DNA of 40,046 nt from the NCBI GenBank assembly GCA_945956975.1, contig CAMFKC010000001.1:1-40046 (forward strand), given 5' to 3'. Both the position numbers and the translations under genes were made by a program. Below the pieces are notes generated by a model. The model saw only the letters and a list, made by a program, of their open reading frames with translations, ran no database searches and was not told the DNA's origin. Of the stretch, positions 2,693-29,582 are shown in pieces. The DNA is from an uncultured Methylocystaceae bacterium (lineage in GTDB: Bacteria > Pseudomonadota > Alphaproteobacteria > Rhizobiales > Beijerinckiaceae). The stretch's first letter is position 1, and every line of letters begins with the position of its first letter.

Positions 2693-4230
<1,538 letters not shown>

Positions 4231-4234
<4 letters not shown>

Positions 4235-5205
4235 AGGCGATACCCCTCTTGTCCCTTGCGGTTGAGCTGGCGATCGAGGAACAGCACGGCGATCAGGATG
4301 ACGCCGAGGATGACGAGCACGTAGAAGGCCGGCACCTGCATGAGGTTCATGCCGTTTCGCAGGATGCCGATGGCCAGCACGCCGCCGAGCGTGCCGACGA
4401 TATTGCCGGCCCCGCCCGTCAGCTTCGTGCCGCCGAGCACCACGGCGGTGATGACCCAGAGCTCGTAATCCTGGCCGAGCGTCGGCGTCGAGGCGCCCAT
4501 CTGGCTCGCCAGCGTCATACCGGCAAGGGCGGCGAGGAAGCCGAGGATGATGAAGTTGACCATCATGTGCGGGCCGATGCGGATGCCGGCATTGACGGCG
4601 GCCTGGCGATTGCCGCCGACGGCATAGGTGTTGCGGCCGTGGACGGTCTGCGAGAGCAGCCAGTGGACGAGGAGGGCGCAGACGAGAAAGACGACGGCGA
4701 GCGTCGGCAAGGGGCCGATATTGCTGGAGCCGAAATCCGAGAAGGCGAAGTTCGTCGCGTAGAAGGACTGTTCCTTCGTGTAGACGAAGACGATACCACG
4801 GATGCCGAGCATCGCGCCGAGCGTGACGATGAAGGCGTCGACACCGGTCCACCAGACGATGAGGCCGTTGAGCGCGCCGAGCGCCACGCCGGCAAGAAGG
4901 GCCGCCGCGACGGCGGGAACGAGTTGCCAGTCGCCCCAGCCCGCGAAGATCTCCCAGCCCTGGATATCCACGACGAGGCTTGCCGACAGCGCCACGATGC
5001 CGCCGACGCTGAGATCGATGTTGCCGTTGATCATCACCAGCGTCATGCCGAGCGCGATGAGGCCGATCGTCGACGTCTGGACGAGGATGTTCTCGAAATT
5101 CTGGAGATCGAAGAAGAACGGGTTCGCCAGGCTGAAGAAGACGAAGATCAGCAGGATGAAGCCCCAGATCGGATTGCGCGAAAGCCAGCGGAGGGTTCGG
5201 TTCAT
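4231..5205 (-). CDS. Sugar ABC transporter permease (CUT2)
   Basis: ATG 5205 is preceded by GAGGAG and lies 10 nt after the upstream permease stop. Multi-TM protein with INGNIDLSVGG and LGGTKLTGGAGN family motifs. Confidence 0.9.
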
Positions 5206-5215
5206 GGCGCGCTCC

Positions 5216-6190
5216 TCAGGCGAAGGGTGAGAACATGCGGCCGCGCTTGGCCGCGATGTCGAGCCAGACGGCCAGGATGATGACAACCCAGGTGACGAGC
5301 CACTGCACGTAATAGGCAAAGCCGAGCAGCAGGAGGCCGTTCTGGATGAAGCCGAGGATGAGCACGCCGATCACGGTCTTCGCGATGCTGCCGGAACCGC
5401 CGAGCAGGGACGTGCCGCCGAGGATGACGGCGGACAGCACGAGGAGCTCGTAGCCCTGGCCGACATTGTTCTGCGAGCCCATCACGCGGCTGCCGAGGAT
5501 GATGGCGGCGATGCCGGTGCAGAAGGCGGAGGTCATGTAGGTGGCGAGGACGACGCGGCCGCGGCGTATGCCGGAAAAGACCGCCGCTGTCGGGTTGCCG
5601 CCCGAGGCGTAGACGCGCCGGCCGAAGGGCGTATGCGCGAGCACGACATGCATGACGACCGCGAGCACGACGAAGATGAGGATCTGCGTCGGCACGCCGA
5701 GGATCGCGCCGCGGCCGAAGATGGCGAACCAGGTCGTGTCCTGGTTCTGGATGTCGACGTTCTGTCCCCCGGTATAGATGAGCGTCAGGCCCTGGATCGC
5801 CGAGAGCATGCCGAGCGTGACGATCAGCGAATTGAGCCGGGCCACGCCGACGAGAAGGCCGTTGACGGCGCCGACGGCAAGGGCGACGAGGAGCGTGACG
5901 GCGATGGCACTGATCGGGCCGATCTTGTCGTGCAGGTCGACGACCAGCACGGTAGAGAGCGACAGGAGCGAGCCGACGGAGAGGTCGAGGTTCCCGCAGA
6001 TGACGACGAGGGTGACGCCGAGCGCCATGACGCCGATGATCGCCGCCTGACGGAAGACGGCCTGCAGGTTGTCCGCGGTCATGAAGCGATCCGAGACGAC
6101 CGAGAAGCCGACCATGAAGAGGATAAAGGCGATAAGGATGCCCCGCTGCGTGAGAATCCTCGTTGCTGACTTCAGGCGTTCTTCCGCCAT
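5216..6190 (-). CDS. Sugar ABC transporter permease (CUT2)
   Basis: ATG 6190 (MAEERLKS...) is preceded by GGGAGA. ICGNLDLSVGS and LGGTSLLGGSGS motifs. Clear paralog of CDS 24960..25913. The longer 411-aa ORF start was rejected. Confidence 0.88.
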   Translation of the reverse strand: MAEERLKSATRILTQRGILIAFILFMVGFSVVSDRFMTADNLQAVFRQAAIIGVMALGVTLVVICGNLDLSVGSLLSLSTVLVVDLHDKIGPISAIAVTLLVALAVGAVNGLLVGVARLNSLIVTLGMLSAIQGLTLIYTGGQNVDIQNQDTTWFAIFGRGAILGVPTQILIFVVLAVVMHVVLAHTPFGRRVYASGGNPTAAVFSGIRRGRVVLATYMTSAFCTGIAAIILGSRVMGSQNNVGQGYELLVLSAVILGGTSLLGGSGSIAKTVIGVLILGFIQNGLLLLGFAYYVQWLVTWVVIILAVWLDIAAKRGRMFSPFA

Positions 6191-6243
6191 GGCCGGTCTA
6201 TCTCCCGTTTTGACGTCGATGGCGGTTGCAGGCGCGCGCATGG

Positions 6244-7041
6244 TCACACCAGTGTCATCCCGCCGTCGATCATGATGATCTGGCCCGTCATGTAGTCGCT
6301 TTCGCGGGAGGCGAGGAAGGTGGTCGTGCCGGTTATGTCGCTCGGTCGCGCGACGCGCCCGCGAAGTATCTCGGCGGAGAATTCCGCCATGGCCTGCCCG
6401 GGGCGTTCGGCCGCGCCGATATTCATGAGATCGCGGTCCACTTCCTCCCACATTTCCGTCGCCACCACGCCGGGGGCGAAACCCGTGACGGTGATGTCAT
6501 GCGGGGCGAGGGCGCGCGCTGCCGACTGGGTGAGGGAGACGACCGCCCATTTCGAGGCGCAATAGGGCGCGACATTGTCGAAGCCCTGGCGGCTCGCGAC
6601 CGAGGCGGTGTTGATGATCTTTCCGCCGCCGCCCTGCGCGATCATCTGGCGCGCGGCTTCCTGGATGCCGATCAGCACGCCCATGGCGTTGACGTTCATG
6701 ATGAACTGCCAGTTCTCGTCGGTCACGTCGAGGAAGTTCATCGGCTTGTTGACGCCGGCATTGTTGAAGCAGACGTCGAGCCGGCCGAAATTGTCGGCGA
6801 CGGCCTTGACGAGCCGGCGCATGTCCTCGCGCCTCGTGACGTCGACCGCATGTGCCATCGCGCGCCCGCCGGCCGCTTCCGCGCGCGCCTCGTTCGCCGC
6901 CGCGACCTCGGCGGCCAGCGCTCCGTTGACATCGGCGAAACAGACACTGGCGCCCTCGTCGAGCAGCGCCTCGCCGATCGCGCGGCCGATCCCGCGCGCC
7001 GCGCCCGTCACGAGGCAGGAAAGTCCGGAAACACGTCCCAT
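6244..7041 (-). CDS. SDR-family oxidoreductase (sorbitol/galactitol/2,3-butanediol dehydrogenase-like)
   Basis: TGAARGIGRA cofactor motif, NNAG, and the S...YCASK catalytic set. The C-terminal DYMTGQIIMIDGGM is typical of classical SDR polyol/acetoin reductases. Paralog of CDS 16015..16821. Confidence 0.88.
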   Translation of the reverse strand: MGRVSGLSCLVTGAARGIGRAIGEALLDEGASVCFADVNGALAAEVAAANEARAEAAGGRAMAHAVDVTRREDMRRLVKAVADNFGRLDVCFNNAGVNKPMNFLDVTDENWQFIMNVNAMGVLIGIQEAARQMIAQGGGGKIINTASVASRQGFDNVAPYCASKWAVVSLTQSAARALAPHDITVTGFAPGVVATEMWEEVDRDLMNIGAAERPGQAMAEFSAEILRGRVARPSDITGTTTFLASRESDYMTGQIIMIDGGMTLV

Positions 7042-7108
7042 CGATTACTCCATATGCATGAATGCGCGGGCCCCGCCTTGGAGGCCCGCGCGGTCCCGGG
7101 AGGACGTC

Positions 7109-8059
7109 TCAGAAGACCGGCTTGGTGAAGTCCTTCATGTTCGCCTTGGTGATCTTCGGTGTTTCGAAGTAGTTGAGGGCAGGGACCTTCTCGCCCTTGA
7201 CGACGGCGATCGCCGTCTTGAGGGCGTTCTCGGCGTCGTCGACCGGCGACTGGTAGATCGAGCCGTAATATTCGCCGCGCTCCATGGCCTCGTAGCCGAC
7301 GGCGAAGTTCGTCGCGCCCACGAAGGCGATCTTGTCGGCGCGGCCGGCGGCCTTGGCCGCGTTCAGCGCGCCGACGCCCATATTGTCGTCGCCGGAATAG
7401 ACGCCGTCGATCTTGTCGTACTTGACGAGGAAGGCCTCCATGACGCGCTGCGACTTTTCGCGGTTCCAGTCGCCCGGCTGGGTCTCCAGGATCTTGACGT
7501 CAGGGCAGGCTTCGGCGAGGCGATCCTCGAAACCCTTCTGGCGCTCGATGGCGGTCGTATAGCCCGGCTGGCCGGAAATCTGCACGATCTGGCCCTTGTT
7601 GCCGAGCGCCTCGCACATCAATTCGGCCGCCGAGGCGCCCTGCTGGATATTGTTGGGGCCGGAGAAGGAGGCGATGAACTCGGCGCCTTCCGGAGCGATG
7701 TTGGAATTCGTCACGATGACCGGGATGCCGGCGGCCTGGGCCTTGCGCACGGCGGGCACGACGGCCTTGCCGTTGGTCGGCCAGATGATGATGGCATTGA
7801 CCTTCTGCTGGATTAGGTCCTGCACCTGGGCGATCTGGCGGGCGACGTCGCCGCCCGCGTCGAGCACCACGGTTTCCACGCCGCTCTCCGCCGCGGCCGC
7901 TTCCTTGAAGGCCTTCTCATAGGTCGTCTGGTAGCTGTCGACGCCCACATTGTTCTGGGTGATGCCGATCTTGATCGTGTCGGCGAAGGCCGCATGGCCG
8001 CCCATGAGGGCGAAGGCGATGCTGACGCCGCCGGCAAGCTGCTTGAATTTCCTGTTCAT
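7109..8059 (-). CDS. Periplasmic sugar-binding protein (type I PBP)
   Basis: ATG 8059 follows GGGAGGA. Signal peptide MNRKFKQLAGGVSIAFALMGGHAAFA. Paralog of CDS 28495..29490 (shared QPGDWNREK/QPADWNREK and GVY..DD.MG.G blocks). Confidence 0.9.
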   Translation of the reverse strand: MNRKFKQLAGGVSIAFALMGGHAAFADTIKIGITQNNVGVDSYQTTYEKAFKEAAAAESGVETVVLDAGGDVARQIAQVQDLIQQKVNAIIIWPTNGKAVVPAVRKAQAAGIPVIVTNSNIAPEGAEFIASFSGPNNIQQGASAAELMCEALGNKGQIVQISGQPGYTTAIERQKGFEDRLAEACPDVKILETQPGDWNREKSQRVMEAFLVKYDKIDGVYSGDDNMGVGALNAAKAAGRADKIAFVGATNFAVGYEAMERGEYYGSIYQSPVDDAENALKTAIAVVKGEKVPALNYFETPKITKANMKDFTKPVF

Positions 8060-8205
8060 GTCGATTCCTCCCGTTTGTTGGCGTGATACCGGCTAGGTCC
8101 GCAGTTTCCTCCTTGCGATTCCCGGCCGGTGTCTCGGCCCGGCAAAACAAATCCTGCAAACCGACCCCGTGGGCCACGACTGATATATCCATATCTGATA
8201 AAAAA

Positions 8206-8222
8206 TAGTCCAAAATGGATGT
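8206..8222. promoter_or_regulatory. Candidate operator, 7-3-7 inverted repeat (site a)
   Basis: Read on the minus strand: ACATCCA-TTT-TGGACTA. It lies between the divergent SBP gene (start 8059) and regulator gene (start 8269). An extra ATATCCA half-site is at 8185-8191. Confidence 0.6.
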
Positions 8223-8268
8223 TTTGCGTGATACACAGGAATATGAAGTCGAATAGCACGAGGTGAAG

Positions 8269-10095
8269 ATGGCCAAACGATCCGAAGCCGGTTCGTCCGG
8301 TGCGCCGCGCAGGCTTGCGGACAGTTTGGCGCGCGCGGCAACGCACGATCGTTTCGAACGCAGCAGGAGTGGGCTGTCCGCCACCATGACAAGACAGAAG
8401 TCGGCCGAACTGCTCGAGACCGTGGATTTCATGGAGGCATTCGTTTCCGAGCTCGGCTCCGTGCTCGATCTTACCACCCACGATCCGTATCTTTCGATGG
8501 CGCTTCATCTCATGCGGACGCATCTCGAGGGAAGGTCCGTGACGGCGTCGTCGCTCGTCGCGGAATCCGGCGTCGCCTATGCGACGGGCATGCGCAAGCT
8601 TGCGGACATGCAGGAGGCGGGGCTCGTCGAGCAGCGCTCCCGCACGCGCACCGGCAAGAGCTTTTCCCTACATCCGAGCGCCCGGTTGATCGCGAGCTGG
8701 GGTGTCCTCGGCGAGCGCTTGCAGCGCATCGCCGCGCAACGGTACGGCGCGTCGGCGGGCGACAGGGGGGCGTCGGACTACTATTTTGGCGGCACCTATC
8801 TCCAGAGCCATTCGATCCCGCCGCCGAAGGTCCTGTCCGAGCCGCTTTCCGTGCCCGGCGGCATCCGCGTGCTCGTCCATGGCGACCCGACCTTCATGGT
8901 CATGGAGCACCTCAAGCGCCAGTTCGAGCAGATCGTCGGCACGAAGATCCACCAGCGGGCCTTCTCCATCGACCGCCTGCACGAGGAGGTGCTGAAGAAC
9001 GCCGAGCGGCGCACCAGCCGCTACGACATCGTCGCCGTGGATCTGCCGTGGATCGGCGAGCTCGCATCGAAGAACGTCATCCTGCCGCTGGATACCATAA
9101 TGGATATCGACCTGCTCGATCCCGGCGATTTTCACACGGCGGGATGGCAGGCCGCCCATTGGGGCCGGCGGCCCTACGGCGTTCCGAGCCAGACGACGCC
9201 GGAGCTCCTGTTCTATCGGCGCGATCTCTTCGCCCAGGCCGGCCTCGAACCGCCGACGACCACGAAGGGCGTGCTGGCCTCCGCCAAGGTGCTGCATGCG
9301 CCGGCGCTCGGCCGCTACGGCATCGCCTGGAACGCCGCGCGCGGAACGGCGCTCGGGCATACGTTCATGATGGCCTGCGCGGATTTCGGCCAGCCGCTCC
9401 TGAACCTGCGGGCGGTGCATGGCGGCTTCGACACGTCCAACCTTCACCGGGACGATCTCGTTCCGACGATCGATACGCCCCGCGCCCTCGAGGCGGCGGA
9501 ATATCTGATGGCGCTTCTGCAATATTCGCCGCCCTATATCCTCTCCATGTCGTGGTACGAGCGCATCCGGCCCTATGCCGCGGGCGAGGTCGCCATGGCC
9601 TATGGCTACACGCTGCTCGCGCCCTATTTCGAGCTCGACCCGAAATCGCCGGCCTTCGGGAACACGGCCTATCTGCCCCATCCGACGGGCACCGGCGGCG
9701 CGCCGGTCGCCCCTATCGGCGGCTATGTGCTGTGCATCCCCAGCAATCTTTCGGAAGAGAGAATGTCGGCCGCGACGCAGGCGCTGGTGGCCTTCACCTC
9801 GCCAGAGGCCCAGAAGCTCTACATCACCAACGGCAGCCGCACCGCGCCGCGCTATTCGGTCGGCGCGGACCCCGATGTCCGGCGTCTCTCCCCGATCTTC
9901 GAGGCGGTGGATGCCATGTCCTGGCGGGACGAGCTGCAGTTCTGGCCGCGCCCGCCGATCCCCGAGATCGCGAGCATCATCACGATCTGCGGCGAGGAGA
10001 TCCACGACATGCTGCGCGGTGCGATTTCCCCGCGCGAGGCCCTGCGCCGCGCGCAGGCGCGCGTGGAAAGGGAGATGAAGGGCCGGAGGCGGTGA
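8269..10095 (+). CDS. Putative transcriptional regulator: N-terminal winged-helix (MarR/ArsR-like) domain fused to a signal-peptide-less family-1 solute-binding-protein domain
   Basis: wHTH-like segment SVTASSLVAESGVAYATGMRKLADMQEAGLVEQRSRTRTGKSFSLHPS. The C-terminal ~430 aa carry SBP family-1 hallmarks (RYDIVAVDLPWIGE...ILPLD, PYGVPSQTTPELLFYRRDLFAQAGLEPP). No hydrophobic signal sequence. ATG 8269 follows GAGGTG; GTG 8263 is an alternative start. Confidence 0.75.
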   Translation: MAKRSEAGSSGAPRRLADSLARAATHDRFERSRSGLSATMTRQKSAELLETVDFMEAFVSELGSVLDLTTHDPYLSMALHLMRTHLEGRSVTASSLVAESGVAYATGMRKLADMQEAGLVEQRSRTRTGKSFSLHPSARLIASWGVLGERLQRIAAQRYGASAGDRGASDYYFGGTYLQSHSIPPPKVLSEPLSVPGGIRVLVHGDPTFMVMEHLKRQFEQIVGTKIHQRAFSIDRLHEEVLKNAERRTSRYDIVAVDLPWIGELASKNVILPLDTIMDIDLLDPGDFHTAGWQAAHWGRRPYGVPSQTTPELLFYRRDLFAQAGLEPPTTTKGVLASAKVLHAPALGRYGIAWNAARGTALGHTFMMACADFGQPLLNLRAVHGGFDTSNLHRDDLVPTIDTPRALEAAEYLMALLQYSPPYILSMSWYERIRPYAAGEVAMAYGYTLLAPYFELDPKSPAFGNTAYLPHPTGTGGAPVAPIGGYVLCIPSNLSEERMSAATQALVAFTSPEAQKLYITNGSRTAPRYSVGADPDVRRLSPIFEAVDAMSWRDELQFWPRPPIPEIASIITICGEEIHDMLRGAISPREALRRAQARVEREMKGRRR

Positions 10096-11240: not shown

Positions 11241-11303
11241 TCGATCCTCCCGTTCGATTTGCATCGGTCTTAGCCCGGCGGGTGGAGGATGCGAATTCCC
11301 CGG

Positions 11304-11320
11304 ATGTCCATTTTGGATAT
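11304..11320. promoter_or_regulatory. Candidate operator, 7-3-7 inverted repeat (site b)
   Basis: ATGTCCA-TTT-TGGATAT in the divergent intergenic region between the oxidoreductase genes starting at 11240 (-) and 11408 (+). Confidence 0.6.
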
Positions 11321-11407
11321 CTGCGGCGTCGAGTCGGCCGGCCGGCCGGCCTATCCAGAACCATCGGCCGGCGAGGAGCGGCTTTGCGAGGCAGTGCGGA
11401 GGACAAG

Positions 11408-14004: not shown

Positions 14005-14117
14005 CCCCGGTTTTCGCGACGTTTCCCGCGCTTCCGACGGGAGCGCGGGACAGGCGGTTTTTCCGGATTCCGACTTGGATGGACATTCTCCAAGAATATC
14101 CAAAACGCGATGTTTCG

Positions 14118-14134
14118 ATATCCATTTTGGATAA
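14118..14134. promoter_or_regulatory. Candidate operator, 7-3-7 inverted repeat (site c)
   Basis: ATATCCA-TTT-TGGATAA, upstream of the second fusion-regulator gene. An extra ATATCCA half-site is at 14096-14102. Confidence 0.6.
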
Positions 14135-14290
14135 ATCTGCTGATCAGCGCTCTCCGGATTTCTGTCAGAACTGTCTGCGTCACCTTCCACTCATCCCTGT
14201 GAGCCAGCCGTGAACGAGCATGTTCCCATTTCCCTGTCTCCGCTTCGCACCCGCCTTGGACGGAGGCGGGATGGGATTTACGGTGCGAGG

Positions 14291-16003
14291 ATGAAGATGA
14301 TGGAGGAAAGCAACCGGGGCCTGCGCGACGGGCTGGATTTCCTGGAGAGCTTCTCGACCGAGCTGGGCAGCACGTTCGAGCTCGAGGCGCCGAACCCGTT
14401 TCTCAACATGGCGAGCCATCTCCTGCGGCACCATCTCGACGGTAAGCTCGTCACGCCGACGTCGCTCATCGCCGCTTCCGGCGTGCCCTATGCGACTGCG
14501 TCGCGCAAGCTGAAGGAGATGGAGCGCGCCGGGCTTCTGGAGCACCGCGAAAGGAGCAGGTCCGGACGCACGTTTTCGGTCCATCCGAGCGAACGGCTCG
14601 TCTCCGCCATGACCAACCTCATCGCCCGCAGCCGCCAGCTCGCCTCCCGATACATGGGCACGGGGCAGGACGACGGCAGCGCGTACTATTTCCAGAGCAC
14701 GCACCAGCAGGCGTCAACGATCCGTCCGCCACTCGTCTTGAACCGGGCCCTCTCGCTTTCCGGCGGCCTGCGCATCCTCGTGCATGGCGACCCGACCTTC
14801 ATGGTCATGGATAAGCTCAAGCGCCAGTTCGAGCAGATGGTCGGCGTCAAGATCAACCAACGGGCGTTCTCCATCGACCGGCTGCGCGAAGAGGCGATCC
14901 GCAATGCCGAGCGGCCGGCCAGCCGCTACGACATCATCGCCGTCGACCTTCCCTGGGTCGGCGAGTTCGCGGAAAAGGGCATTCTCGCCCCGCTCGACGA
15001 ACTCATGGACATCGGGCGCCTGAAGCCGGACGACTTTCACCCGGCCGGCTGGCGCGCGACCCATTGGGGCGGGAGGCCCTATGGCGTGCCGAGCCAGACG
15101 ACGCCCGAACTGCTGTTCTACCGGCGCGACCTCTTCGCCGAGGCGGGCCTCGAGCCGCCGGCGAGCGTCGAGGATGTGCTGAAGGCCGCCGAGGTCTTCC
15201 ACCGCCCGTCCCAGGGGCGCTACGGCATTGCCTGGAACGCGGCGCGCGGAACGGCGCTTGGCCATACATTCATCATGGCCTGCGCCGATTTCGGCCAGCC
15301 GGTGCTGGACCTCGCGCCGCTGGCCCATGGCTTCGACGCCGATATCGGCCTTCGCGATGACCTGCGCGCGACGATTGACACGCCGAAGGGCCTGGAGGCG
15401 GCGGAGTACCTGCGCGCGATGCTCGCCTACTCGCCACCCGACATTCTCTCCATGTCCTGGTACGAGCGCATCCGTCCCTATGCGGCCGGCAAGGTCGCGA
15501 TGGCCTATGGCTATACCGCGCTCGCGCCCTATTTCGAGCTGGATCCGGGCTCGCCAGCCTATGGGCAGACGGGCTACCTGCCGCATCCGGCCGGCCCCGG
15601 CGTTGCGCCGCATGCGACGGTCGGCGGATACATGCTCGGCATTCCCGCCAACCTTCCCGCCGAGCGGCGGGCGGACGCCATCGAGGCGCTGATCGCCTTC
15701 ACCTCGGCCGAGGCCCAGAAGCTCTTCGTGGTCAACGGCTCGCGCACCGCGCCGCGCTATTCGGTCGGCGCGGATCCGGAAGTGCGCCGCCGCTCGCCGA
15801 TCTTCGAGGCCGTCGACGCCATGTCCTGGCGCGAGGAGCTGCAGTTCTGGGCGCGCCCGCCCATCCCGAAGATCTCCGAGATCATCCGCATCTGCGGCGA
15901 GGAATTTCACGACATGCTGCGCGGTATCCAGCCGGCGCGCATCGCCTTGCAACGCGCCCAGGCCCGTGCCGACGCGCTCTTGAAAACGACGTCAACGAAT
16001 TGA
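14291..16003 (+). CDS. Putative transcriptional regulator, wHTH + family-1 solute-binding domain fusion (paralog of 8269..10095)
   Basis: Alignable by eye with CDS 8269..10095 over essentially the whole length, e.g. LVHGDPTFMVM.KLKRQFEQ, PYGVPSQTTPELLFYRRDLFA, GIAWNAARGTALGHTF.MACADFGQP. wHTH segment LVTPTSLIAASGVPYATASRKLKEMERAGLLEHRERSRSGRTFSVHPS. Start uncertain: ATG 14291/14297/14300, or GTG 14210 which has no SD. Confidence 0.75.
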   Translation: MKMMEESNRGLRDGLDFLESFSTELGSTFELEAPNPFLNMASHLLRHHLDGKLVTPTSLIAASGVPYATASRKLKEMERAGLLEHRERSRSGRTFSVHPSERLVSAMTNLIARSRQLASRYMGTGQDDGSAYYFQSTHQQASTIRPPLVLNRALSLSGGLRILVHGDPTFMVMDKLKRQFEQMVGVKINQRAFSIDRLREEAIRNAERPASRYDIIAVDLPWVGEFAEKGILAPLDELMDIGRLKPDDFHPAGWRATHWGGRPYGVPSQTTPELLFYRRDLFAEAGLEPPASVEDVLKAAEVFHRPSQGRYGIAWNAARGTALGHTFIMACADFGQPVLDLAPLAHGFDADIGLRDDLRATIDTPKGLEAAEYLRAMLAYSPPDILSMSWYERIRPYAAGKVAMAYGYTALAPYFELDPGSPAYGQTGYLPHPAGPGVAPHATVGGYMLGIPANLPAERRADAIEALIAFTSAEAQKLFVVNGSRTAPRYSVGADPEVRRRSPIFEAVDAMSWREELQFWARPPIPKISEIIRICGEEFHDMLRGIQPARIALQRAQARADALLKTTSTN

Positions 16004-16014
16004 GGAGGAACGTC

Positions 16015-16821
16015 ATGGATCCGAACCGCCTGAAGGGCAAGAACATCCTGGTCACCGGCGCCGCACAGGGCATGGGCGCCTGCAATGCCGAATATTTCGC
16101 CGCGCAGGGCGCCAATGTCTGCCTCGGCGACATCAATGTCGCCGGCGTGAACGACGTGGCGCGGCGCATCAACGAGGCCGGCAACGGCAAGGCGATCGCC
16201 GTCAAGCTCGACGTCACCAGCCGCACCGACAATGCCGAGGCGGTCGCGGCCACGGTCGATGCCTTCGGCTCCATCAACGTGACGCTCCTCAATGCCGGCA
16301 TCAACAAGCCCCTGATGTTCCTCGATATCACCGAGGAGAACTGGGACATGATCATGAACATCAACGCGAAGGGCCAGCTTCTCGGCATGCAGGAGGCGGC
16401 CAAGCAGTTCATCAGGCAGGGCAAGGAGAACGGGCCCTACAAGATCGTCAATGTCGGCTCCATCGTCTCGCGCCAGGCCTTCCTCGACGTCGTGCCCTAT
16501 TCGGCCTCCAAGCATGCGACGCTCGCGCTCATCAATGGCGGCGCCAAGGCGCTCGTCGAGCACAACATCACCGTCAACGGCTACGGTCCCGGCGTCGTGC
16601 GCACGGAACTGTGGGAGCAGCTCGACAAGGACCTCGTCAAGATCGGCATGTTCGAGAAGGAGGGCCAGTCGATGGATCACCTCGCAAAGACAATGATCCT
16701 GATGAAGCGCTACAGCTATCCCGACGACGTTCGCGGGACGGCCGCCTTCCTGTGCTCGCCCGAAAGCGACTACATGACCGGCCAGCTCATCATGATCGAC
16801 GGCGGCATGATCATGCAGTGA
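16015..16821 (+). CDS. SDR-family oxidoreductase (acetoin reductase/2,3-butanediol or polyol dehydrogenase-like)
   Basis: ATG 16015 follows GAGGAGGA. Motifs TGAAQGMG, NAG and S...YSASK. ITVNGYGPGVV and DYMTGQLIMIDGGM resemble BudC-type enzymes. Paralog of CDS 6244..7041. Confidence 0.88.
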   Translation: MDPNRLKGKNILVTGAAQGMGACNAEYFAAQGANVCLGDINVAGVNDVARRINEAGNGKAIAVKLDVTSRTDNAEAVAATVDAFGSINVTLLNAGINKPLMFLDITEENWDMIMNINAKGQLLGMQEAAKQFIRQGKENGPYKIVNVGSIVSRQAFLDVVPYSASKHATLALINGGAKALVEHNITVNGYGPGVVRTELWEQLDKDLVKIGMFEKEGQSMDHLAKTMILMKRYSYPDDVRGTAAFLCSPESDYMTGQLIMIDGGMIMQ

Positions 16822-16898
16822 CCGGCCGCCGCCGACCCTTTCCACCGATCCCTATCGCTATGACGCGCGCCCCTGACGGCTGCGCGAAGGAGAAAGCC

Positions 16899-18203
16899 AT
16901 GGCCATCACCACCGCCCTCAACCCCCGCATCCTCCAGCCCGGAGACATCGACCCGAACTGGCGCTGGGACCGGCATCTGCCGGCGCTCGGCCACACCGCC
17001 GTCGATTTCGAGCGACGCGTCGATCACGACCGCCTGCGCCGCTACCGCCTCAGCCGCGCCAAGGACGCGCTGAAGAAGTCCGGGCTTGGCGCGCTCCTGA
17101 CCTTCGACGTCAACAACATCCGCTACATCACCGGCACGAAGATCGGGGAATGGGAGCGCGACAAGATGTGCCGCTTCGCGCTTCTCGCCGGCGACGAGGA
17201 GCCCTTCGTCTGGGATTTCGGCTCCGCGGCGGTGCATCACAGGCAATATTGCGACTGGCTGAACCCCGACCATTGCCGTGCCGGCGTCGTCGGCATGCGC
17301 GGCACGATCCCGCCGTCCTTCGGCTTGATGAAATACTATGCCGAGGAGATCGCCTCGCTGCTGCGCGCCGCGGGCGTGCTCGACATGCCGGTCGGCGTCG
17401 ACTACGCCGAGACGGCGATGTTCTTCGCCTTGCAGGAGGCGGGCATCAAGGTCGTCGACGGCCAGCAGGTCATGCTCTCGGCCCGTGAAATCAAGAATGT
17501 CGACGAGATCCACCTCCTGACGCAGGCGGCCAGCATGGTCGACGGCGTCTACCACATGATCTGGGAGGAGCTGAAGCCGGGCATCCGCGAGAACGACATC
17601 GTCGCCATGGCCAACAAGCTGCTCTACGAGATGGGCTCCGACGACGTGGAGGCGATCAACGCGATCGCCGGCGAGCGCTGCAACCCGCATCCGCACAACT
17701 TTACAGACCGCCTGTTCCGCCCGGGTGACCAGGCGTTCTTCGACATCCTGCAGAGCTACCAGGGTTATCGTACCTGCTACTACCGCACTTTCAACATCGG
17801 CCGCGCGACGCCAGTGCAGCGCGACGCCTATGTGAAGGCGCGCGAATGGCTGGATGCCTCCATAGCGATGATCAAGCCGGGCGTCACGACCGACAAAGTG
17901 GCGGCGGTCTGGCCGACGGCCGAGAGCCTCGGCTTCCCGAACGAGCTGGCCGCCTTCGGCCTGCAGTTCGGCCACGGCCTCGGCCTTGCGCTGCATGAGC
18001 GCCCGATCATCAGCCGCGCGGTCAGCTTCGAAAATCCCATGGTCATCGAGACGGGCATGGTCTTCGCGCTCGAAACCTACTGCCCGGCCGCGGACGGCTA
18101 CTCGGCGGCGCGCATCGAGGAGGAGGTCGTCGTGACCGACAAGGGCTGCGAGGTCATCAGCCTCTTCCCCGCCGAAGAGCTGCCGATCGCCAACCGCTAC
18201 TGA
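16899..18203 (+). CDS. M24-family (creatinase/Xaa-Pro peptidase fold) hydrolase with an atypical metal site
   Basis: ATG 16899 follows GAAGGAGA. Pita-bread-fold motifs GDQAFFDILQSYQGYRTCYYRTF, FGHGLGLALHERP, GMVFALETY and RIEEEVVVT. The second metal-ligand Asp position is Cys (codon 17775-17777). Confidence 0.8.
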   Translation: MAITTALNPRILQPGDIDPNWRWDRHLPALGHTAVDFERRVDHDRLRRYRLSRAKDALKKSGLGALLTFDVNNIRYITGTKIGEWERDKMCRFALLAGDEEPFVWDFGSAAVHHRQYCDWLNPDHCRAGVVGMRGTIPPSFGLMKYYAEEIASLLRAAGVLDMPVGVDYAETAMFFALQEAGIKVVDGQQVMLSAREIKNVDEIHLLTQAASMVDGVYHMIWEELKPGIRENDIVAMANKLLYEMGSDDVEAINAIAGERCNPHPHNFTDRLFRPGDQAFFDILQSYQGYRTCYYRTFNIGRATPVQRDAYVKAREWLDASIAMIKPGVTTDKVAAVWPTAESLGFPNELAAFGLQFGHGLGLALHERPIISRAVSFENPMVIETGMVFALETYCPAADGYSAARIEEEVVVTDKGCEVISLFPAEELPIANRY

Positions 18204-18259
18204 CATCCCGCCGCGCCGGAGCGTCTGCCTCAGGTGCGGCCTTCACCGGGAAGAGATCC

Positions 18260-19267
18260 ATGACACAAAGGAAGACCAACTCCGACGCCTATCTGCGGAT
18301 GTACCGCCAGATGGTGCGCATCCGCGCCTTCGAGGACCAGGCGAATTCGCTTTACCTGTCGGCCAAGATGCCAGGGCTGACCCACATGTATTCCGGCCAG
18401 GAAGCGGTGGCGGTCGGCATCTGCGAGGCGTTGACGCGTGACGACAAGGTCACCTCGACTCATCGCGGCCACGGCCACTGCGTCGCCAAGGGTGCGGAAT
18501 TCAAGGAGATGTTCTGCGAGCTTCTCGGCCGTGCCGAGGGTTATTGCGGCGGCAAGGGCGGCTCCATGCACATCGCCGACCAGTCGAACGGCAATCTCGG
18601 AGCCAATGCCATCGTAGGCGGCTCGATGGGTATCGCCACGGGGGCCGCGCTTTCGGCCAAGCGTCTCGGGCGCAAGGATGTGACGGTCTGTTTCTTCGGC
18701 GACGGCGCGACGGCACAGGGCCTGCTCTACGAGGTCATGAACATGGCCGCGCTCTGGAGACTACCGGTCATCTATGCATGCGAGAACAACGGTTACAGCG
18801 AATATACCAAGACCGCCGAGATCGCCGCCGGCTCGCTGACGGCGCGCGCCGAGGCCTTCGGTATCGAAGCTTTCACCGTCGACGGCCAGGACGTGCTGGC
18901 AGTCAATGAGCTCGCACAGAAGCTGGTTGCCCGCTGCCGTAAGGGGGAGGGGCCGTTCTTCGTGCAGCTCGACACCTACCGCTATCACGGCCACCATGTC
19001 GGCGATATCAACCGCGAATACTACCGCTCCAAGGACGAGGAGGCGCTCTGGAAAAACGAGCGTGACCCGATCCTTAATTTCGGCCGCTGGCTGTCGGCCG
19101 AGGGCCTCGCGTCGGCCGACGAGCTCGCTGCCATCGAGAAGGCCGTGAAGGCCGATGCGGAAGCCGCCGTCGCCTATGCGCTGGCTGCGCCTTTCCCCGA
19201 TCCCTCGCAGGTGGGACGCCATGTCTTCACCGACATGATCGTCGCCCGAGGAGACCACAATGCGTGA
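18260..19267 (+). CDS. TPP-dependent 2-oxoacid/acetoin dehydrogenase E1 alpha subunit
   Basis: TPP-binding block FFGDGATAQGLLYEVMNMAALWRLPVIYACENNGY, plus YSGQEAVAVG and THRGHGH motifs. Confidence 0.9.
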   Translation: MTQRKTNSDAYLRMYRQMVRIRAFEDQANSLYLSAKMPGLTHMYSGQEAVAVGICEALTRDDKVTSTHRGHGHCVAKGAEFKEMFCELLGRAEGYCGGKGGSMHIADQSNGNLGANAIVGGSMGIATGAALSAKRLGRKDVTVCFFGDGATAQGLLYEVMNMAALWRLPVIYACENNGYSEYTKTAEIAAGSLTARAEAFGIEAFTVDGQDVLAVNELAQKLVARCRKGEGPFFVQLDTYRYHGHHVGDINREYYRSKDEEALWKNERDPILNFGRWLSAEGLASADELAAIEKAVKADAEAAVAYALAAPFPDPSQVGRHVFTDMIVARGDHNA

Positions 19268-20243
19268 AATCACCCTTTCCAAGGCCGTCAACGAGGCAAT
19301 CGCCGAGGAGATGCGCCGCGATCCCTCGATCTTCCTGATCGGCGAGGACGTCGCCGAGGCCGGTACGCCCTTCAAGGTGCTCTCCGGCCTCGTCGAGGAG
19401 TTCGGCCCGGACCGCATCATCGACACCCCCATTTCCGAACCCGGCTTCATGGGCATGGCGGTGGGCGCGGCGATAACGGGCAGCCGCCCGATCGTCGACC
19501 TGATGTTCGGCGACTTCATCTTCCTCGTCATGGACCAGCTCTGCAACCAGGCGGCCAAGACGCATTACATGTCGGGCGGCAAGCTGAAGGTGCCGCTCGT
19601 GCTGCGCACCAATCTCGGCGCTACCCGCCGCTCGGCCGCCCAGCACAGCCAGTCGCTGCATGCGCTCGTCGCGCATATTCCCGGCCTCAAGGTCGCGCTG
19701 CCGTCCTCGGCCTACGAGGCGAAGGGCCTCCTGAAGACGGCGATCCGCGACGACAACCCGGTCGTCATCTTCGAAGACAAGCTGATGTACCAGGAAAAGG
19801 CCGGCGTGCCCGAGGAGGAATATCTCATCCCCTTCGGTGTCGCCAACGTGAAGCGCGAGGGGCGCGACGTAACGCTCATTGCCACGTCCTCCATGGTGCA
19901 GGTCGCCGAAAAGGCGGCCGACATGCTCGCGGCCGAAGGTATTTCGGCCGAGGTCATCGACCCGCGCACGATCGTGCCGCTCGACGAGGAGACGCTGCTC
20001 GCCTCCGCGCGCAAGACCGGGCGCGTCGTCGTCATCGACGAGGGGCACCAGAGCTACGGCGTCACCGCCGAGATCGCCAGCCGCATCGGGGACAAGGCCT
20101 TCTACCATCTTGACGCGCCGGTGCAGCGCATGGGCGCCATGGATGTCCCGGTTCCCTTCTCGCCGGCGCTGGAGGACCTGACGGTGCCGACGCCGGATGG
20201 CGTAGCTGCGCGGGCGCGGGCGCTCGTACGCGGGGAGATCTGA
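19260..20243 (+). CDS. 2-oxoacid/acetoin dehydrogenase E1 beta subunit
   Basis: The ATG overlaps the E1 alpha 3' end. Transketolase-like pyrimidine-binding motifs (IGEDV, DTPISE.GF.G.A.GAA..G.RP) and the C-terminal domain are present. Confidence 0.9.
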   Translation: MREITLSKAVNEAIAEEMRRDPSIFLIGEDVAEAGTPFKVLSGLVEEFGPDRIIDTPISEPGFMGMAVGAAITGSRPIVDLMFGDFIFLVMDQLCNQAAKTHYMSGGKLKVPLVLRTNLGATRRSAAQHSQSLHALVAHIPGLKVALPSSAYEAKGLLKTAIRDDNPVVIFEDKLMYQEKAGVPEEEYLIPFGVANVKREGRDVTLIATSSMVQVAEKAADMLAAEGISAEVIDPRTIVPLDEETLLASARKTGRVVVIDEGHQSYGVTAEIASRIGDKAFYHLDAPVQRMGAMDVPVPFSPALEDLTVPTPDGVAARARALVRGEI

Positions 20244-20245
20244 CC

Positions 20246-21214
20246 ATGGCGAACGATGTCATCATGCCGGCGCTCGGCATGGCCCAGACCTCCGGCGTGA
20301 TCGTCAACTGGCTGAAGGCCACCGGTGACGCGGTGGCCGAAGGCGATCCGCTGATGGAGGTGGAGACCGACAAGGCGGTCATGGAGGTCCAGGCGCTCGC
20401 CTCCGGCTTCCTGATCGAGATCCTGCATCCCGCCGGTGCCGATGTCCCGGTCGGGGAGGTGATCGCCCGCATCGGCGCGAGCGCGGATGCGGTGGTTTCG
20501 GCGAAAAAGCCGGAGCCGGCGCCCGCCGTGGCGGCGGAAGCACCGGCCCGCGCGGTTGACGCAGCCGCTTCGCCCGAACCGGTGCGCAAGGCGCCCGCAC
20601 AGCCGGCCCAGGCGGGCAAAGTATTGGCCTCTCCCAAGGCGCGCCGGCTGGCCGACGAGCGCGGCGTCGATCTTCGCCGCCTCGTCGGCCAGGGCATCAC
20701 CGAGCCCATCCACGTCGCCGATCTCGACCGCTATGTCGCCGTTCCTGCGCCACAGGCCGCAGGCGCCGCGCTGAACGAGATCCTTGCCACCCTTCCGGCG
20801 GATGCGCTCCGGCAATTCGCCGACTGGGCCGAACGGGAAGCCGGGGTCTCGGCCGCCGCGCTGCTGGCGGCGCTTGCCGGCTCCGCGCTCGGCCGGCCGG
20901 CGACGATCCGCGTCGAGCACCGCCATGCGGCGCATGTCTACGACATCGGCGCCCGCCCGTCGCTCGGCGGGCTTGCCGCACGGGACGACGGGCAGGCCGA
21001 ATCGGCCCTCATCCTGCGTGACCTGAGGGGAAGCCGCATCGGGCGGGCAAGGCTGGCGGCCGATCTCGCCCCGGTGCTGACTCTTGCCGACGATGAGGAC
21101 CGGCTTTCCGTGACGCTCACCTTCACGGGCGACCGTTTGGGAACGGAGGATGCCTTCGCCCTGATCGACGCCTTTGCGGCGCGGGTGGAAAACCCGATGC
21201 GCCTGCTTCTCTAG
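20246..21214 (+). CDS. Lipoyl-carrier / E3-binding protein with a degenerate, His-less acyltransferase core (E3BP-like)
   Basis: Lipoyl domain with the VETDKAVMEV lipoyl-lysine motif, an Ala/Pro linker, and a peripheral-subunit-binding domain ASPKARRLADERGVDLRRLVGQG. The short C-terminal region ends ...TFTGDRLGTEDAFALIDAFAARVENPMRLLL. This aligns with the E2 DHR..G motif, but the catalytic His is absent. Confidence 0.75.
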   Translation: MANDVIMPALGMAQTSGVIVNWLKATGDAVAEGDPLMEVETDKAVMEVQALASGFLIEILHPAGADVPVGEVIARIGASADAVVSAKKPEPAPAVAAEAPARAVDAAASPEPVRKAPAQPAQAGKVLASPKARRLADERGVDLRRLVGQGITEPIHVADLDRYVAVPAPQAAGAALNEILATLPADALRQFADWAEREAGVSAAALLAALAGSALGRPATIRVEHRHAAHVYDIGARPSLGGLAARDDGQAESALILRDLRGSRIGRARLAADLAPVLTLADDEDRLSVTLTFTGDRLGTEDAFALIDAFAARVENPMRLLL

Positions 21215-21227
21215 GAGGAACCCCAAG

Positions 21228-22658: not shown

Positions 22659-22665
22659 GGCAACG

Positions 22666-23550: not shown

Positions 23551-23557
23551 GGAACGC

Positions 23558-29490: not shown

Positions 29491-29582
29491 TGGTTCCTCC
29501 GAGGATTGCGCGCGGGGTCCTCCTCTGGACCGCCGCGGTGCCGAAATCATCGGGTGGGGCGGGATCCCCGCCAATGCGGAAT

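What the first reader, a model, noticed from the sequence alone, without database searches (positions are those of the whole stretch)
8269..10095. Cytoplasmic family-1 solute-binding domain fused to a winged-helix DNA-binding domain: candidate new regulator architecture (copy 1)
The first ~150 aa contain a MarR/ArsR-style winged helix (SSLVAESGVAYATGMRKLADMQEAGLVEQRSRTRTGKSFSLHPS: recognition helix plus basic wing). The remaining ~430 aa look like the mature part of an extracytoplasmic family-1 (MalE/UgpB/SmoE-like) ABC solute-binding protein, with RYDIVAVDLPWIGELASKNVILPLD, PYGVPSQTTPELLFYRRDLFAQAGLEPP and GIAWNAARGTALGHTF. There is no signal peptide, lipobox or Tat h-region. PBP-fold sensor domains are well known in LacI/GalR and LysR regulators, but I know of no characterised regulator built from a wHTH plus a MalE-like family-1 SBP. 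The gene is divergent from a sugar ABC/SDR operon, and the shared 17-bp palindrome lies 47 nt upstream of its ATG, consistent with autoregulation. No LacI, GntR, DeoR, ROK or LysR gene occurs anywhere in the 40 kb, so this protein and its paralog are the only candidate regulators.
Basis: partly seen in the sequence, partly recalled or inferred. Interest (0 to 1): 0.85.

Follow-up and report, generated by a model that had tools for sequence, protein, structure and literature searches.

The report
Cytoplasmic sugar-binding-protein transcription regulator
This gene fuses a DNA-binding domain to a whole transporter-type sugar-binding protein that stays inside the cell; it most likely acts as a ligand-controlled switch for nearby sugar/polyol genes and belongs to a widespread family that databases label only as transporter parts.

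Summary
ORF 8269-10095 (+) is intact and encodes 608 aa. It has a variable N-terminal tail, a MarR/ArsR-like winged helix (aa ~45-160; AF2 pLDDT 93.7, Foldseek top hits MarR and ArsR/SmtB regulators), a conserved linker, and a complete family-1 solute-binding domain (SBP_bac_1 E=2.8e-23; best solved relative is the ribitol-bound SBP 5IAI). It has no signal peptide or membrane segment. A paralog (64% identity) lies at 14210-16003.

The architecture is not a one-off. The scan found 537 relatives in species-representative genomes, and every organism identified was an alphaproteobacterium. All are annotated only as "extracellular solute-binding protein". I found no paper describing such a regulator.

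The palindrome ATATCCA-N3-TGGATAT is the top palindrome upstream of the orthologs in 80 genomes. All 80 have at least 2 sites, about 200-fold denser there than elsewhere, with fixed 21- and 34-bp spacing. It also flanks 30-49%-identical homologs that sit beside different sugar loci. In the window, six strong sites mark four promoter regions.

Best reading: a one-component, autoregulated, ligand-responsive regulator, probably a repressor, of a conserved and unassigned polyol/sugar catabolic regulon. DNA binding, the effector and the sign of regulation are inferred, not shown. It is a new variant of a known kind.

The parts
8269..10095 (+). REG1: 608-aa winged-helix + SBP regulator gene, stop codon included. 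An alternative start is ATG 8386, giving 569 aa.
   Evidence: ORF; domain hits; colinear with about 600-aa homologs; SD-like element conserved in position; start ambiguity.
8269..8400 (+). Variable N-terminal tail (aa 1-44), predicted disordered and possibly partly untranslated.
   Evidence: Not conserved in the alignments; pLDDT below 35; atypical codon-position GC.
8401..8748 (+). MarR/ArsR-like winged helix-turn-helix domain (aa 45-160). The recognition helix is aa ~104-116 (YATGMRKLADMQE, 8578-8616) and the beta-wing is aa 120-136. Long flanking helices are the likely dimer interface.
   Evidence: AF2 pLDDT 93.7; Foldseek hits to MarR and ArsR/SmtB regulators, probability 1.0; weak MarR_2, HTH_IclR and TrmB HMM hits in 9 of 10 members; Y, T and R of the recognition helix are invariant even in 30%-identical homologs.
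8749..8859 (+). Linker (aa 161-197) with the conserved motif DYYFGG...I.PP.VL.EPL.
   Evidence: Y171 and Y172 are invariant in both alignments; F173, I183, P186, V188 and L189 are invariant in the 13-sequence alignment; low pLDDT in the full-length model.
8860..10080 (+). Family-1 (MalE/UgpB-type) solute-binding domain (aa 198-604), the proposed cytoplasmic ligand sensor.
   Evidence: SBP_bac_1 E=2.8e-23 and SBP_bac_8 E=5.9e-20; 5iai_A E=3.2e-27 over aa 203-599; 5IAI holds ribitol (PMC8468352).
8183..8203 (.). Operator O1 (ATATATCCATATCTGATAAAA, 18.8 bits), centred 134 bp from the SBP start codon at 8059.
   Evidence: PWM scan; same position as site 1 in orthologous loci.
8204..8224 (.). Operator O2 (AATAGTCCAAAATGGATGTTT, 24.4 bits), 21 bp from O1. 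Its core ends 47 nt before ATG 8269.
   Evidence: 21-bp spacing seen 79 times across 80 loci.
2693..8059 (-). Divergent target operon: CUT2 SBP (7109-8059), SDR (6244-7041), two permeases (5216-~6130 and 4231-5319), and ATPase (2693-~4228).
   Evidence: Pfam; the same five genes in the same order next to the regulator in almost all of the loci recovered.
11302..11322 (.). Operator (GGATGTCCATTTTGGATATCT, 24.0 bits) between Gfo/Idh/MocA gene 10119-11264 (-) and the GMC oxidoreductase plus Gfo/Idh/MocA genes ~11423-14004 (+).
14116..14136 (.). Operator (CGATATCCATTTTGGATAAAT, 24.5 bits) upstream of the paralog REG2.
14210..16003 (+). REG2: paralogous winged-helix + SBP regulator, 64% identical to REG1. 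The likely start is ATG 14291-14300, after a GAGG. It heads the SDR-M24-E1-E2-ALDH operon.
   Evidence: It is as close to the orthologs as REG1 is (66.6 vs 67.1% mean identity).
16000..24937 (+). Downstream target operon: SDR, M24-family hydrolase, TPP-dependent E1 alpha and beta, lipoyl/E3-binding protein, SSADH-like aldehyde dehydrogenase, E2 catalytic domain, and E3.
   Evidence: Pfam and NCBIfam; SDR, M24, E1 alpha and E1 beta follow the regulator in most of the loci recovered, and ALDH, the lipoyl protein and the E2 catalytic domain in many of them.
29581..29659 (.). Two operators (29581-29601, 21.9 bits; 29639-29659, 23.3 bits) between CUT2 SBP 28495-29490 (-) and the Gfo/Idh/MocA-SBP-ATPase-permease-SDR operon that starts at 29727 (+).

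Best explanation
REG1, and its paralog REG2, is a cytoplasmic one-component transcription factor.

Proposed mechanism:
- A MarR-like winged-helix domain dimerises through its long flanking helices.
- The dimer binds the palindrome ATATCCA-N3-TGGATAT.
- The sites are arrayed 21 bp apart, on one face of the helix, in the divergent promoter region between the regulator gene and a CUT2 sugar-type ABC/SDR operon. Further sites lie at three other promoter regions of the window.
- The C-terminal MalE-type solute-binding domain, which has lost its export signal, acts as a Venus-flytrap sensor. It most likely binds a polyol, a ketose-like substrate or an intermediate of the adjacent catabolic pathway.
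- Ligand-induced closure repositions the DNA-binding domains and releases the operators, derepressing transport, catabolism and the regulator's own gene.

What is shown: the domain architecture, the absence of an export signal, conservation of the family, and co-inheritance of the palindrome with the gene.

What is inferred: DNA binding by this protein, dimerisation, repression rather than activation, and the identity of the effector.
For: Architecture.

Family:
- 1653 database hits, about 600 aa long.
- 537 relatives in species-representative genomes.
- The N-terminal domain profile finds 403 clusters at 50% identity. All seven full-length members tested carry SBP_bac_1.

Operator in orthologous loci:
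- An unbiased count of 5-N-5 palindromes in 500 bp upstream of 80 orthologs gives ATCCA-N3-TGGAT in 35 regions; the next 5-N3-5 palindrome is in 6 and the best at any other spacing in 19.
- All 80 loci carry at least 2 PWM sites, with spacing peaks at 21 bp (79 cases) and 34 bp (44 cases).
- Sites of at least 14 bits occur at 6.05 per kb upstream against 0.029 per kb elsewhere.
- Site positions are fixed relative to the SBP start codon.

Operator in distant loci:
- Homologs of 30-49% identity lie in different gene neighbourhoods in Agrobacterium, Rhizobium, Sinorhizobium, Shinella, Aminobacter and Skermanella. Nine of ten carry a site of at least 18 bits in the intergenic regions next to them. 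The background is 17 such sites in 1.5 Mb.
- The recognition-helix residues Y, T and R are invariant across these subfamilies.

Sole candidate: no other regulator domain or riboswitch occurs in the 40 kb, and no other regulator is conserved in the syntenic core.

Repressor-type position: in the orthologs a third site abuts the SD of the regulator gene. In the window a site lies 48 bp from the start codon of gene 10119-11264.
Against: - There is no experimental evidence of DNA binding.
- REG1's winged helix scores below Pfam thresholds.
- The full-length AF2 model is poor (pLDDT 57), so the geometry between sensor and DNA-binding domain is unknown.
- A consensus sigma-70 scan found no promoter in the intergenic region, so the position of the operators relative to the promoters is not established and activation is not excluded.
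- One distant locus (Loktanella, L086) has only weak variant sites.
- The effector is unknown. The transporters of the regulon use unrelated CUT2 binding proteins, and the sensor is not a recent copy of a neighbouring SBP.
Confidence: 0.75

Rival explanations
1. The protein and operator are as described, but it is a ligand-dependent activator or dual regulator rather than a repressor. The 21-bp tandem sites would sit upstream of the -35 boxes of the divergent promoters and recruit RNA polymerase when the sensor is loaded.
For: The sites are centred 134 and 155 bp from the SBP start codon and 101-159 bp from the start of SBP 28495-29490. With long 5' UTRs these distances would suit class I or class II activation. 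No promoter could be mapped.
Against: In the orthologs a third site lies directly before the SD of the regulator gene, about 21 bp from its start. In the window one site is 48 bp from a start codon. Both are positions typical of repression. From general knowledge, most wHTH sugar and aromatic catabolic regulators of the MarR, IclR and TrmB types are repressors.
Confidence: 0.2
2. The palindrome is the site of another regulator encoded elsewhere. On this reading the wHTH-SBP protein has a non-transcriptional role, for example as a cytoplasmic ligand buffer or chaperone, or with the winged helix used for protein-protein contacts.
For: There are no binding data. The wHTH scores below family thresholds. 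Winged helices can mediate protein contacts (general knowledge).
Against: The only gene shared by all loci that carry the palindrome, both orthologous and distant with different target genes, is this one. The recognition-helix residues co-conserve with the operator core. No other regulator is present in the 40 kb.
Confidence: 0.04
3. It is an ordinary exported ABC-transporter binding protein. On this reading the N-terminal 200 residues are an annotation or assembly artefact: a wrong start, a fused upstream ORF, or a frameshift.
For: Public annotation calls it an extracellular or ABC-transporter substrate-binding protein, with varying starts of 554-610 aa.
Against: The reading frame is continuous, and the N-terminal domain is conserved at protein level in hundreds of genomes. 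It folds confidently as a wHTH. There is no signal peptide at any candidate start. No CUT1 permease genes are adjacent.
Confidence: 0.01

Closest known systems
MarR-family regulators (e.g. HcaR, MexR, SlyA, MepR)
   Same: The winged helix has flanking long helices. It gives the best Foldseek matches (4rgx, 1lnw, 1lj9 and others; probability 1.0, TM 0.45-0.55). Palindromic operators lie in a divergent promoter, and the gene appears to be autoregulated.
   Different: MarR proteins are about 150-aa single-domain dimers that bind ligand at the interface between the dimerisation and DNA-binding regions. Here a 400-aa SBP domain is appended. REG1 does not reach the MarR or MarR_2 Pfam thresholds.
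LacI/GalR and LysR-type regulators
   Same: They use the same logic: a periplasmic-binding-protein-fold Venus-flytrap sensor fused to an N-terminal DNA-binding domain, controlling catabolic or transport operons in the cytoplasm.
   Different: Those families use HTH_LacI + Peripla_BP_1/3 (type I fold) or HTH_1 + LysR_substrate (a small type II fold). None of these Pfam models matches REG1. Here the sensor is a full-size SBP_bac_1 (MalE/UgpB-type) protein, and the DNA-binding domain is MarR-like.
ABC-transporter family-1 (CUT1) polyol and sugar binding proteins, e.g. the ribitol-bound 5IAI, sorbitol-binding 4RYA, and trehalose/maltose-binding 1EU8
   Same: There is sequence homology over the whole mature SBP (E=3.2e-27 to 7.4e-07). 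The Pfam SBP_bac_1 hit is above threshold.
   Different: REG1 has no signal peptide or lipobox and carries a DNA-binding domain. It is not next to CUT1 permeases. It is not a recent copy of neighbouring SBPs.
TrmB (archaeal sugar-sensing regulator of the trehalose/maltose ABC operon)
   Same: An N-terminal winged helix is followed by a sugar-binding domain, and the protein represses a sugar ABC transporter operon. Nine of 10 N-terminal domains give a weak TrmB Pfam hit (best E=7.8e-4).
   Different: TrmB's sugar-binding domain is not an SBP fold (from my own knowledge). No TrmB C-terminal domain was detected here.
PBP_like/ModA-like domain + HTH regulators (e.g. the tungstate-responsive TunR). 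This is recalled from memory; the paper is not in the searchable library.
   Same: A transporter-type type II binding-protein domain fused to an HTH, cytoplasmic, and sensing the transported solute.
   Different: The binding-protein class differs (small oxyanion-binding ModA type against the 400-aa MalE type). The HTH type and the taxa also differ. This comparison was not tested here.

Membership tests
MarR family (Pfam PF01047 / PF12802) | HMM score at or above the gathering threshold | tested here: not met
   MarR_2 scores 15.0 bits for the whole protein and 18.7 bits for the isolated domain, against a cut-off of 27. Nine of 10 family members give weak hits. One short representative (P0251, 122 aa) reaches 29.6 bits.
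MarR family (Pfam PF01047 / PF12802) | Winged helix-turn-helix fold with N- and C-terminal helices available for dimerisation | tested here: met
   AF2 pLDDT 93.7 with topology H-H-H-H-beta-beta-H. The top Foldseek hits are MarR-family crystal structures.
MarR family (Pfam PF01047 / PF12802) | Single-domain protein of about 140-170 aa | tested here: not met
   The protein is 608 aa with an extra SBP domain of about 400 aa.
Bacterial extracellular solute-binding protein family 1 (SBP_bac_1, ABC importer receptor) | SBP_bac_1 HMM above threshold | tested here: met
   83.8 bits against a cut-off of 26. PDB relatives align across the mature domain.
Bacterial extracellular solute-binding protein family 1 (SBP_bac_1, ABC importer receptor) | N-terminal Sec/Tat signal peptide or lipobox for export | tested here: not met
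   There is no hydrophobic region in the first 70 aa or anywhere else; the 19-residue hydropathy maximum is 1.21. The neighbouring CUT2 SBP shows a clear signal peptide. This is a hydropathy test only; SignalP was not available.
Bacterial extracellular solute-binding protein family 1 (SBP_bac_1, ABC importer receptor) | Encoded with cognate CUT1 permease and ATPase genes | tested here: not met
   All transporters in the window are of the CUT2 type (BPD_transp_2 with Peripla_BP_4). The same holds in the orthologous loci recovered.
LacI/GalR family | HTH_LacI domain plus Peripla_BP_1/3 sensor | tested here: not met
   Neither model appears among the Pfam hits at E up to 1.
LysR family | HTH_1 domain plus LysR_substrate domain | tested here: not met
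   Neither model appears among the Pfam hits.
TrmB family | TrmB wHTH above threshold plus the TrmB C-terminal sugar-binding domain | tested here: not met
   Only sub-threshold TrmB hits were found in the N-terminal domain. The C-terminus is SBP_bac_1.
One-component transcription factors (sensor domain + DNA-binding domain in one cytoplasmic protein) | A DNA-binding domain and a small-molecule-binding domain in one soluble polypeptide | tested here: met
One-component transcription factors (sensor domain + DNA-binding domain in one cytoplasmic protein) | Sequence-specific DNA binding modulated by ligand | not testable with these tools
   Supported only indirectly, by co-inheritance of the palindrome with the gene.

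The most novel reading that the evidence does not exclude
REG1 and REG2 would represent a previously unrecognised family of alphaproteobacterial one-component regulators. In this family an intact MalE-type ABC solute-binding protein has been moved to the cytoplasm and coupled to a MarR-like winged helix. The family has diversified into subfamilies that control different sugar, polyol or cyclitol oxidation loci through one conserved operator core (TCCA-N3-TGGA). Here it would govern an undescribed catabolic route built around a TPP/lipoyl-dependent C-C cleavage complex with a split E2, a DddP-like M24 enzyme and an aldehyde dehydrogenase.
Probability: 0.55. Interest if true: 0.72.

Novelty: new variant of a known kind. 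Interest (0 to 1): 0.66.

Why it matters
- It would add a new domain combination to the set of bacterial one-component regulators. It would show that the large MalE/UgpB class of transporter receptors, not only the LacI-type and LysR-type PBP folds, has been recruited as a cytoplasmic sensor.
- It exposes a systematic misannotation. The scan found 537 relatives in species-representative genomes, and the named ones are labelled "extracellular solute-binding protein" or ABC transporter component. That hides the regulator of a widely conserved marine and rhizosphere catabolic island.
- The predicted operator gives a handle for reconstructing the regulon and for identifying the unknown substrate.
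- MalE-type domains are favoured biosensor scaffolds, so a natural SBP-to-DNA switch could be useful for engineering.

Tried and rejected
- **Full-length AF2 model.** With a 13-sequence alignment it reached only pLDDT 57, good only for aa 45-160. It was not used for fold search. The N-terminal domain was modelled separately instead.
- **NCBIfam.** There was no meaningful hit for REG1 and no equivalog-level hit for any of the ten regulon proteins scanned, so the substrate could not be named.
- **Sigma-70 and terminator scan of 8000-8330.** It found nothing.
- **A second "palindrome".** TGTCG-N4-CGACA appeared in 17 of 80 upstream windows, but it lies inside the conserved coding sequence of the divergent SBP gene. 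It was rejected as an operator.
- **Origin of the sensor.** I tested whether the sensor domain is a recent duplicate of the neighbouring transporter's SBP. The regulon's SBPs here are of the unrelated CUT2 type. In two distant loci that have CUT1 SBPs, similarity to the regulator is negligible (E=0.32 and 0.002). The idea was rejected.
- **Other regulators.** I looked for a hidden regulator or riboswitch. The 950-bp gap at 1743-2693 has no Pfam hit, and the window has no Rfam match.
- **Literature.** Six searches for wHTH/MarR + solute-binding-protein regulators found nothing relevant. A search for the TunR precedent returned nothing from the library.
- **Frameshift or fusion artefact.** It was rejected because the frame is open and colinear with about 600-aa homologs.
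Full report
**1. The gene**

The window contains an uninterrupted ORF at 8263/8269-10095 (+) of 610 or 608 aa. A second copy at 14210-16003 is 64% identical over residues 28-604. I call them REG1 and REG2.

Composition is typical of a high-GC alphaproteobacterium. The 90% identity cluster of REG1 holds Shinella sp. entries named "ABC transporter substrate-binding protein".

**2. The two domains**

*C-terminal domain.*
- Pfam finds SBP_bac_1 (E=2.8e-23, aa 249-516) and SBP_bac_8 (E=5.9e-20) well above threshold.
- Against solved structures, aa 203-599 align with residues 35-418 of the 422-residue chain 5iai_A (E=3.2e-27). Trehalose/maltose-, maltose-, sorbitol- and UgpB-type binding proteins follow.
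- 5IAI is a ribitol complex (PMC8468352).
- So the C-terminal ~410 residues are a complete mature family-1 SBP of the polyol/sugar type.

*N-terminal domain.*
- In REG1 this region gives only a sub-threshold MarR_2 hit: 15 bits for the whole protein and 18.7 for the isolated domain, against a cut-off of 27.
- Nine of ten N-terminal domains of family members give weak MarR_2, HTH_IclR and TrmB hits.
- A profile of the domain finds the winged helices of CodY and an IclR protein in the PDB.
- An AlphaFold2 model of aa 44-165 built on 32 sequences is confident (pLDDT 93.7, pTM 0.85). It shows a long helix, a helix, the helix-turn-helix, a two-stranded wing and a long C-terminal helix.
- Foldseek against the PDB returns MarR-family proteins (HcaR, MexR, SlyA, MepR, MftR-DNA complex) and ArsR/SmtB proteins (SqrR, BigR, SmtB) at probability 1.0 and TM 0.45-0.55.

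*Full-length model.* It was poor (pLDDT 57) except for aa 45-160, so I make no claim about how the domains pack.

**3. Location in the cell**

- Hydropathy shows no hydrophobic stretch in the first 70 residues and no membrane-spanning segment. The 19-residue maximum is 1.21 in REG1 and at most 1.68 in 59 family members.
- The exported CUT2 binding protein next door has a textbook signal peptide.
- The protein is thus predicted to be cytoplasmic. SignalP and TatP could not be run.

**4. The start codon**

- ATG 8269 has GAGG 5 nt upstream. An SD-like GGAGG-type element is conserved at exactly that position relative to the operators in 78 orthologous loci.
- Against this, codons 1-39 have atypical GC1/2/3 of 0.62/0.72/0.69. 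The region is not conserved. NCBI entries in the cluster are 554 or 569 aa; 569 aa would correspond to a start at ATG 8386.
- Either start keeps the whole winged helix. The finding does not depend on this point.

**5. The family**

- A search of 5.8 billion proteins returned 1653 hits. The best 120 are 561-650 aa long and 64-72% identical apart from one 98% near-duplicate. Those that carry a name are called extracellular solute-binding protein, ABC transporter substrate-binding protein or multiple sugar transport SBP.
- A scan of one genome per species found 537 relatives. The 80 retrieved are Rhodobacterales and Hyphomicrobiales, plus unclassified alphaproteobacterial MAGs.
- On plasmids there are more distant full-length homologs, 30-49% identical and aligned from residue ~45 onward. 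They occur in Agrobacterium, Rhizobium, Sinorhizobium, Shinella, Aminobacter, Loktanella and Skermanella.
- A profile of the N-terminal domain alone finds only 403 clusters among 1.84 billion 50%-identity representatives. Full-length hits are 541-633 aa. All seven full-length ones tested carry SBP_bac_1.
- The winged helix of this type is thus essentially always fused to the SBP domain.
- The architecture is real, conserved and widespread, and it is invisible in annotation.

**6. Genomic context**

In almost all of the 82 loci examined, wherever the contig extends far enough, the regulator lies between two units (annotated examples):
- a divergent operon: CUT2 SBP, SDR, two permeases and an ATPase;
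- a co-directional operon: SDR, M24-family protein, TPP-dependent E1 alpha and beta, then often a lipoyl/E3-binding protein, an SSADH-like aldehyde dehydrogenase and the E2 catalytic domain.

In the window this unit is split:
- REG1 keeps the transporter side.
- REG2 keeps the catabolic side.
- A Gfo/Idh/MocA-GMC oxidoreductase-Gfo/Idh/MocA block lies between them.
- REG1 and REG2 are equally close to the single-copy orthologs (67.1 and 66.6% mean identity).

The rest of the window holds four more CUT2 systems, oxidoreductases, a PhyH dioxygenase and a xylose-isomerase-like protein. It has no LacI, GntR, DeoR, ROK, LysR or other regulator domain and no Rfam match.

**7. The operator**

*In the window.*
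- ATCCAWWWTGGAT with up to 2 mismatches occurs 7 times against 0.82 expected.
- Six occurrences are strong PWM sites, all in promoter regions: 8183 and 8204 (REG1 and the divergent SBP), 11302 (Gfo and GMC), 14116 (REG2), and 29581 and 29639 (SBP and Gfo operon).

*In the orthologous loci.*
- In the 500 bp upstream of the 80 orthologs, an unbiased enumeration of 5-N-5 palindromes puts ATCCA-N3-TGGAT first. It occurs in 35 regions; the next 5-N3-5 palindrome occurs in 6 and the best at any other spacing in 19.
- A refined PWM reads wwATaTCCAwwwTGGATaTww. It finds at least 2 sites in all 80 loci, with sharp spacing peaks at 21 bp (79 cases) and 34 bp (44 cases).
- Sites of at least 14 bits are about 200-fold denser there than in the other 1.5 Mb (6.05 against 0.029 per kb).
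- Positions are fixed: about 135, 156 and 190 bp from the SBP start codon.
- The window's two sites sit at 134 and 155 bp, matching sites 1 and 2.
- The third site in orthologs is a variant (tTCAAtTTGAACA) that abuts the SD of the regulator gene. It is degenerate in the window.

*In the distant loci.*
- The palindrome follows distant homologs into different neighbourhoods.
- Strong sites of 18-28 bits lie in the intergenic regions flanking the regulator in A. tumefaciens, Rhizobium sp. WL3, R. tumorigenes, Sinorhizobium sp. B11, two Shinella loci, Aminobacter and Skermanella. Only weak variants occur in Loktanella.
- The background is 17 sites of at least 18 bits in 1.5 Mb.
- The recognition-helix residues Y, T and R (PYATxxR) are invariant across these subfamilies.
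- The only gene common to all palindrome-bearing loci is the wHTH-SBP gene. This is the core argument that the protein binds the palindrome.

**8. Mechanism**

*Shown:* the architecture, the lack of an export signal, the conservation, and the co-inheritance of operator and gene.

*Inferred:*
- A dimer forms through the flanking helices, as in MarR proteins.
- The recognition helices read the TCCA/TGGA half-sites, and the wings contact the AT-rich flanks.
- Two dimers sit 21 bp apart on one face of the DNA.
- The SBP domain closes on a cytoplasmic ligand and, through the conserved DYYFGG linker, alters the geometry of the DNA-binding domains.

I favour repression, at roughly 0.6-0.7 given that it is a regulator at all. 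In orthologs one site lies between the likely promoter and the SD of the regulator gene. In the window one site is 48 bp from a start codon. No promoter could be mapped, so activation remains possible.

The effector is unknown. The closest solved SBPs bind ribitol, sorbitol and disaccharides. The regulon's SDRs are nearest to acetoin reductase, butanediol dehydrogenase and iditol dehydrogenase, but below NCBIfam cut-offs. A polyol or its keto derivative is my best guess.

The sensor is not a recent copy of a neighbouring transporter SBP.

**9. Comparison with known systems and novelty**

- The protein works like LacI/GalR, LysR and TrmB regulators: a binding-protein-like or sugar-binding sensor plus a DNA-binding domain. 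It is a member of none of them; the membership table gives the tests.
- Its DNA-binding domain is structurally MarR/ArsR-like but fails the MarR HMM thresholds. Its sensor is a bona fide SBP_bac_1 domain that fails the export and gene-context criteria of a transporter receptor.
- A precedent for transporter-type binding domains fused to an HTH exists from memory (ModA-like PBP_like + HTH regulators such as TunR). It could not be retrieved.
- Six literature searches found no regulator with a winged helix fused to a MalE-type SBP. The PDB search matched only the SBP region of REG1.
- I therefore rate it a new variant of a known kind: widespread, conserved and uncharacterised.

**10. Verdict**

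- It would interest specialists in bacterial regulation and ABC transport. The main limits are that the general principle (a PBP-fold sensor in a regulator) is textbook and that no function is yet shown.
- Interest is 0.66.

Noticed in passing
window 16000-24937 (also L001, L003-L082): A gene cluster of unassigned function, much of it conserved across genera, follows the regulator. It holds an SDR, an M24-family protein whose best NCBIfam match is DMSP lyase DddP but far below cut-off (106.6 vs 600 bits), TPP-dependent E1 alpha and beta, an SSADH-like aldehyde dehydrogenase, and E3. The E2 is split: a lipoyl/E3-binding protein (20246-21214) is separated from the catalytic domain (22594-23550) by the aldehyde dehydrogenase gene. 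The substrate is unknown.
   Followed up: partly
window 9-1743, 2693-8059, 24960-29490, 30814-33990, 36126-39234: Five separate CUT2-type (Peripla_BP_4 / BPD_transp_2) sugar ABC transporter systems lie in 40 kb. Only two of the five (2693-8059 and 30814-33990), plus the separately transcribed binding-protein gene 28495-29490 of a third, lie next to the palindromic operator.
   Followed up: partly
window 1743-2693: A stretch of about 950 bp in a lower-GC part of the window (0.60 for 2001-4000) has no ORF longer than 96 aa, no Pfam hit in the small ORFs, and no Rfam match. It may be a decayed gene or a long regulatory region.
   Followed up: partly
L084, L086, L089, L091, L085 (plasmids of Rhizobium, Loktanella, Sinorhizobium, Aminobacter): Regulator subfamilies of 30-36% identity sit beside a recurring set of genes: YciI, Gfo/Idh/MocA, Zn-dependent dehydrogenases, and a '2,3-butanediol dehydrogenase'. 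In several of these loci an intradiol ring-cleavage dioxygenase is also present, with maleylacetate reductase in some. This hints at a route from a sugar or cyclitol to hydroxyquinol.
   Followed up: no
L003-L082, about +45 to +65 bp from the first operator centre; degenerate at window ~8238-8258: The third operator in orthologous loci uses a variant half-site (tTCAAtTTGAACA, i.e. GTTCA/TGAAC instead of ATCCA/TGGAT) and directly precedes the SD of the regulator gene. The window's site at 29639 (ATCCATTTTGAAC) is a hybrid of the two half-site types.
   Followed up: partly
window 35032-35052: A weak operator-like site (AATTTTTCGTTTTCAATAAAC, 12.6 bits) lies just upstream of the PhyH-dioxygenase / CUT2 transporter operon that starts at 35075. 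It may be a degenerate member of the regulon or a chance match.
   Followed up: no
window 7936-7949 and the corresponding position in 17 of 80 loci: The apparent palindrome TGTCG-N4-CGACA is enriched 'upstream' of the regulator, but it lies within the conserved coding sequence of the divergent SBP gene. It is a coding artefact, not a regulatory site.
   Followed up: yes
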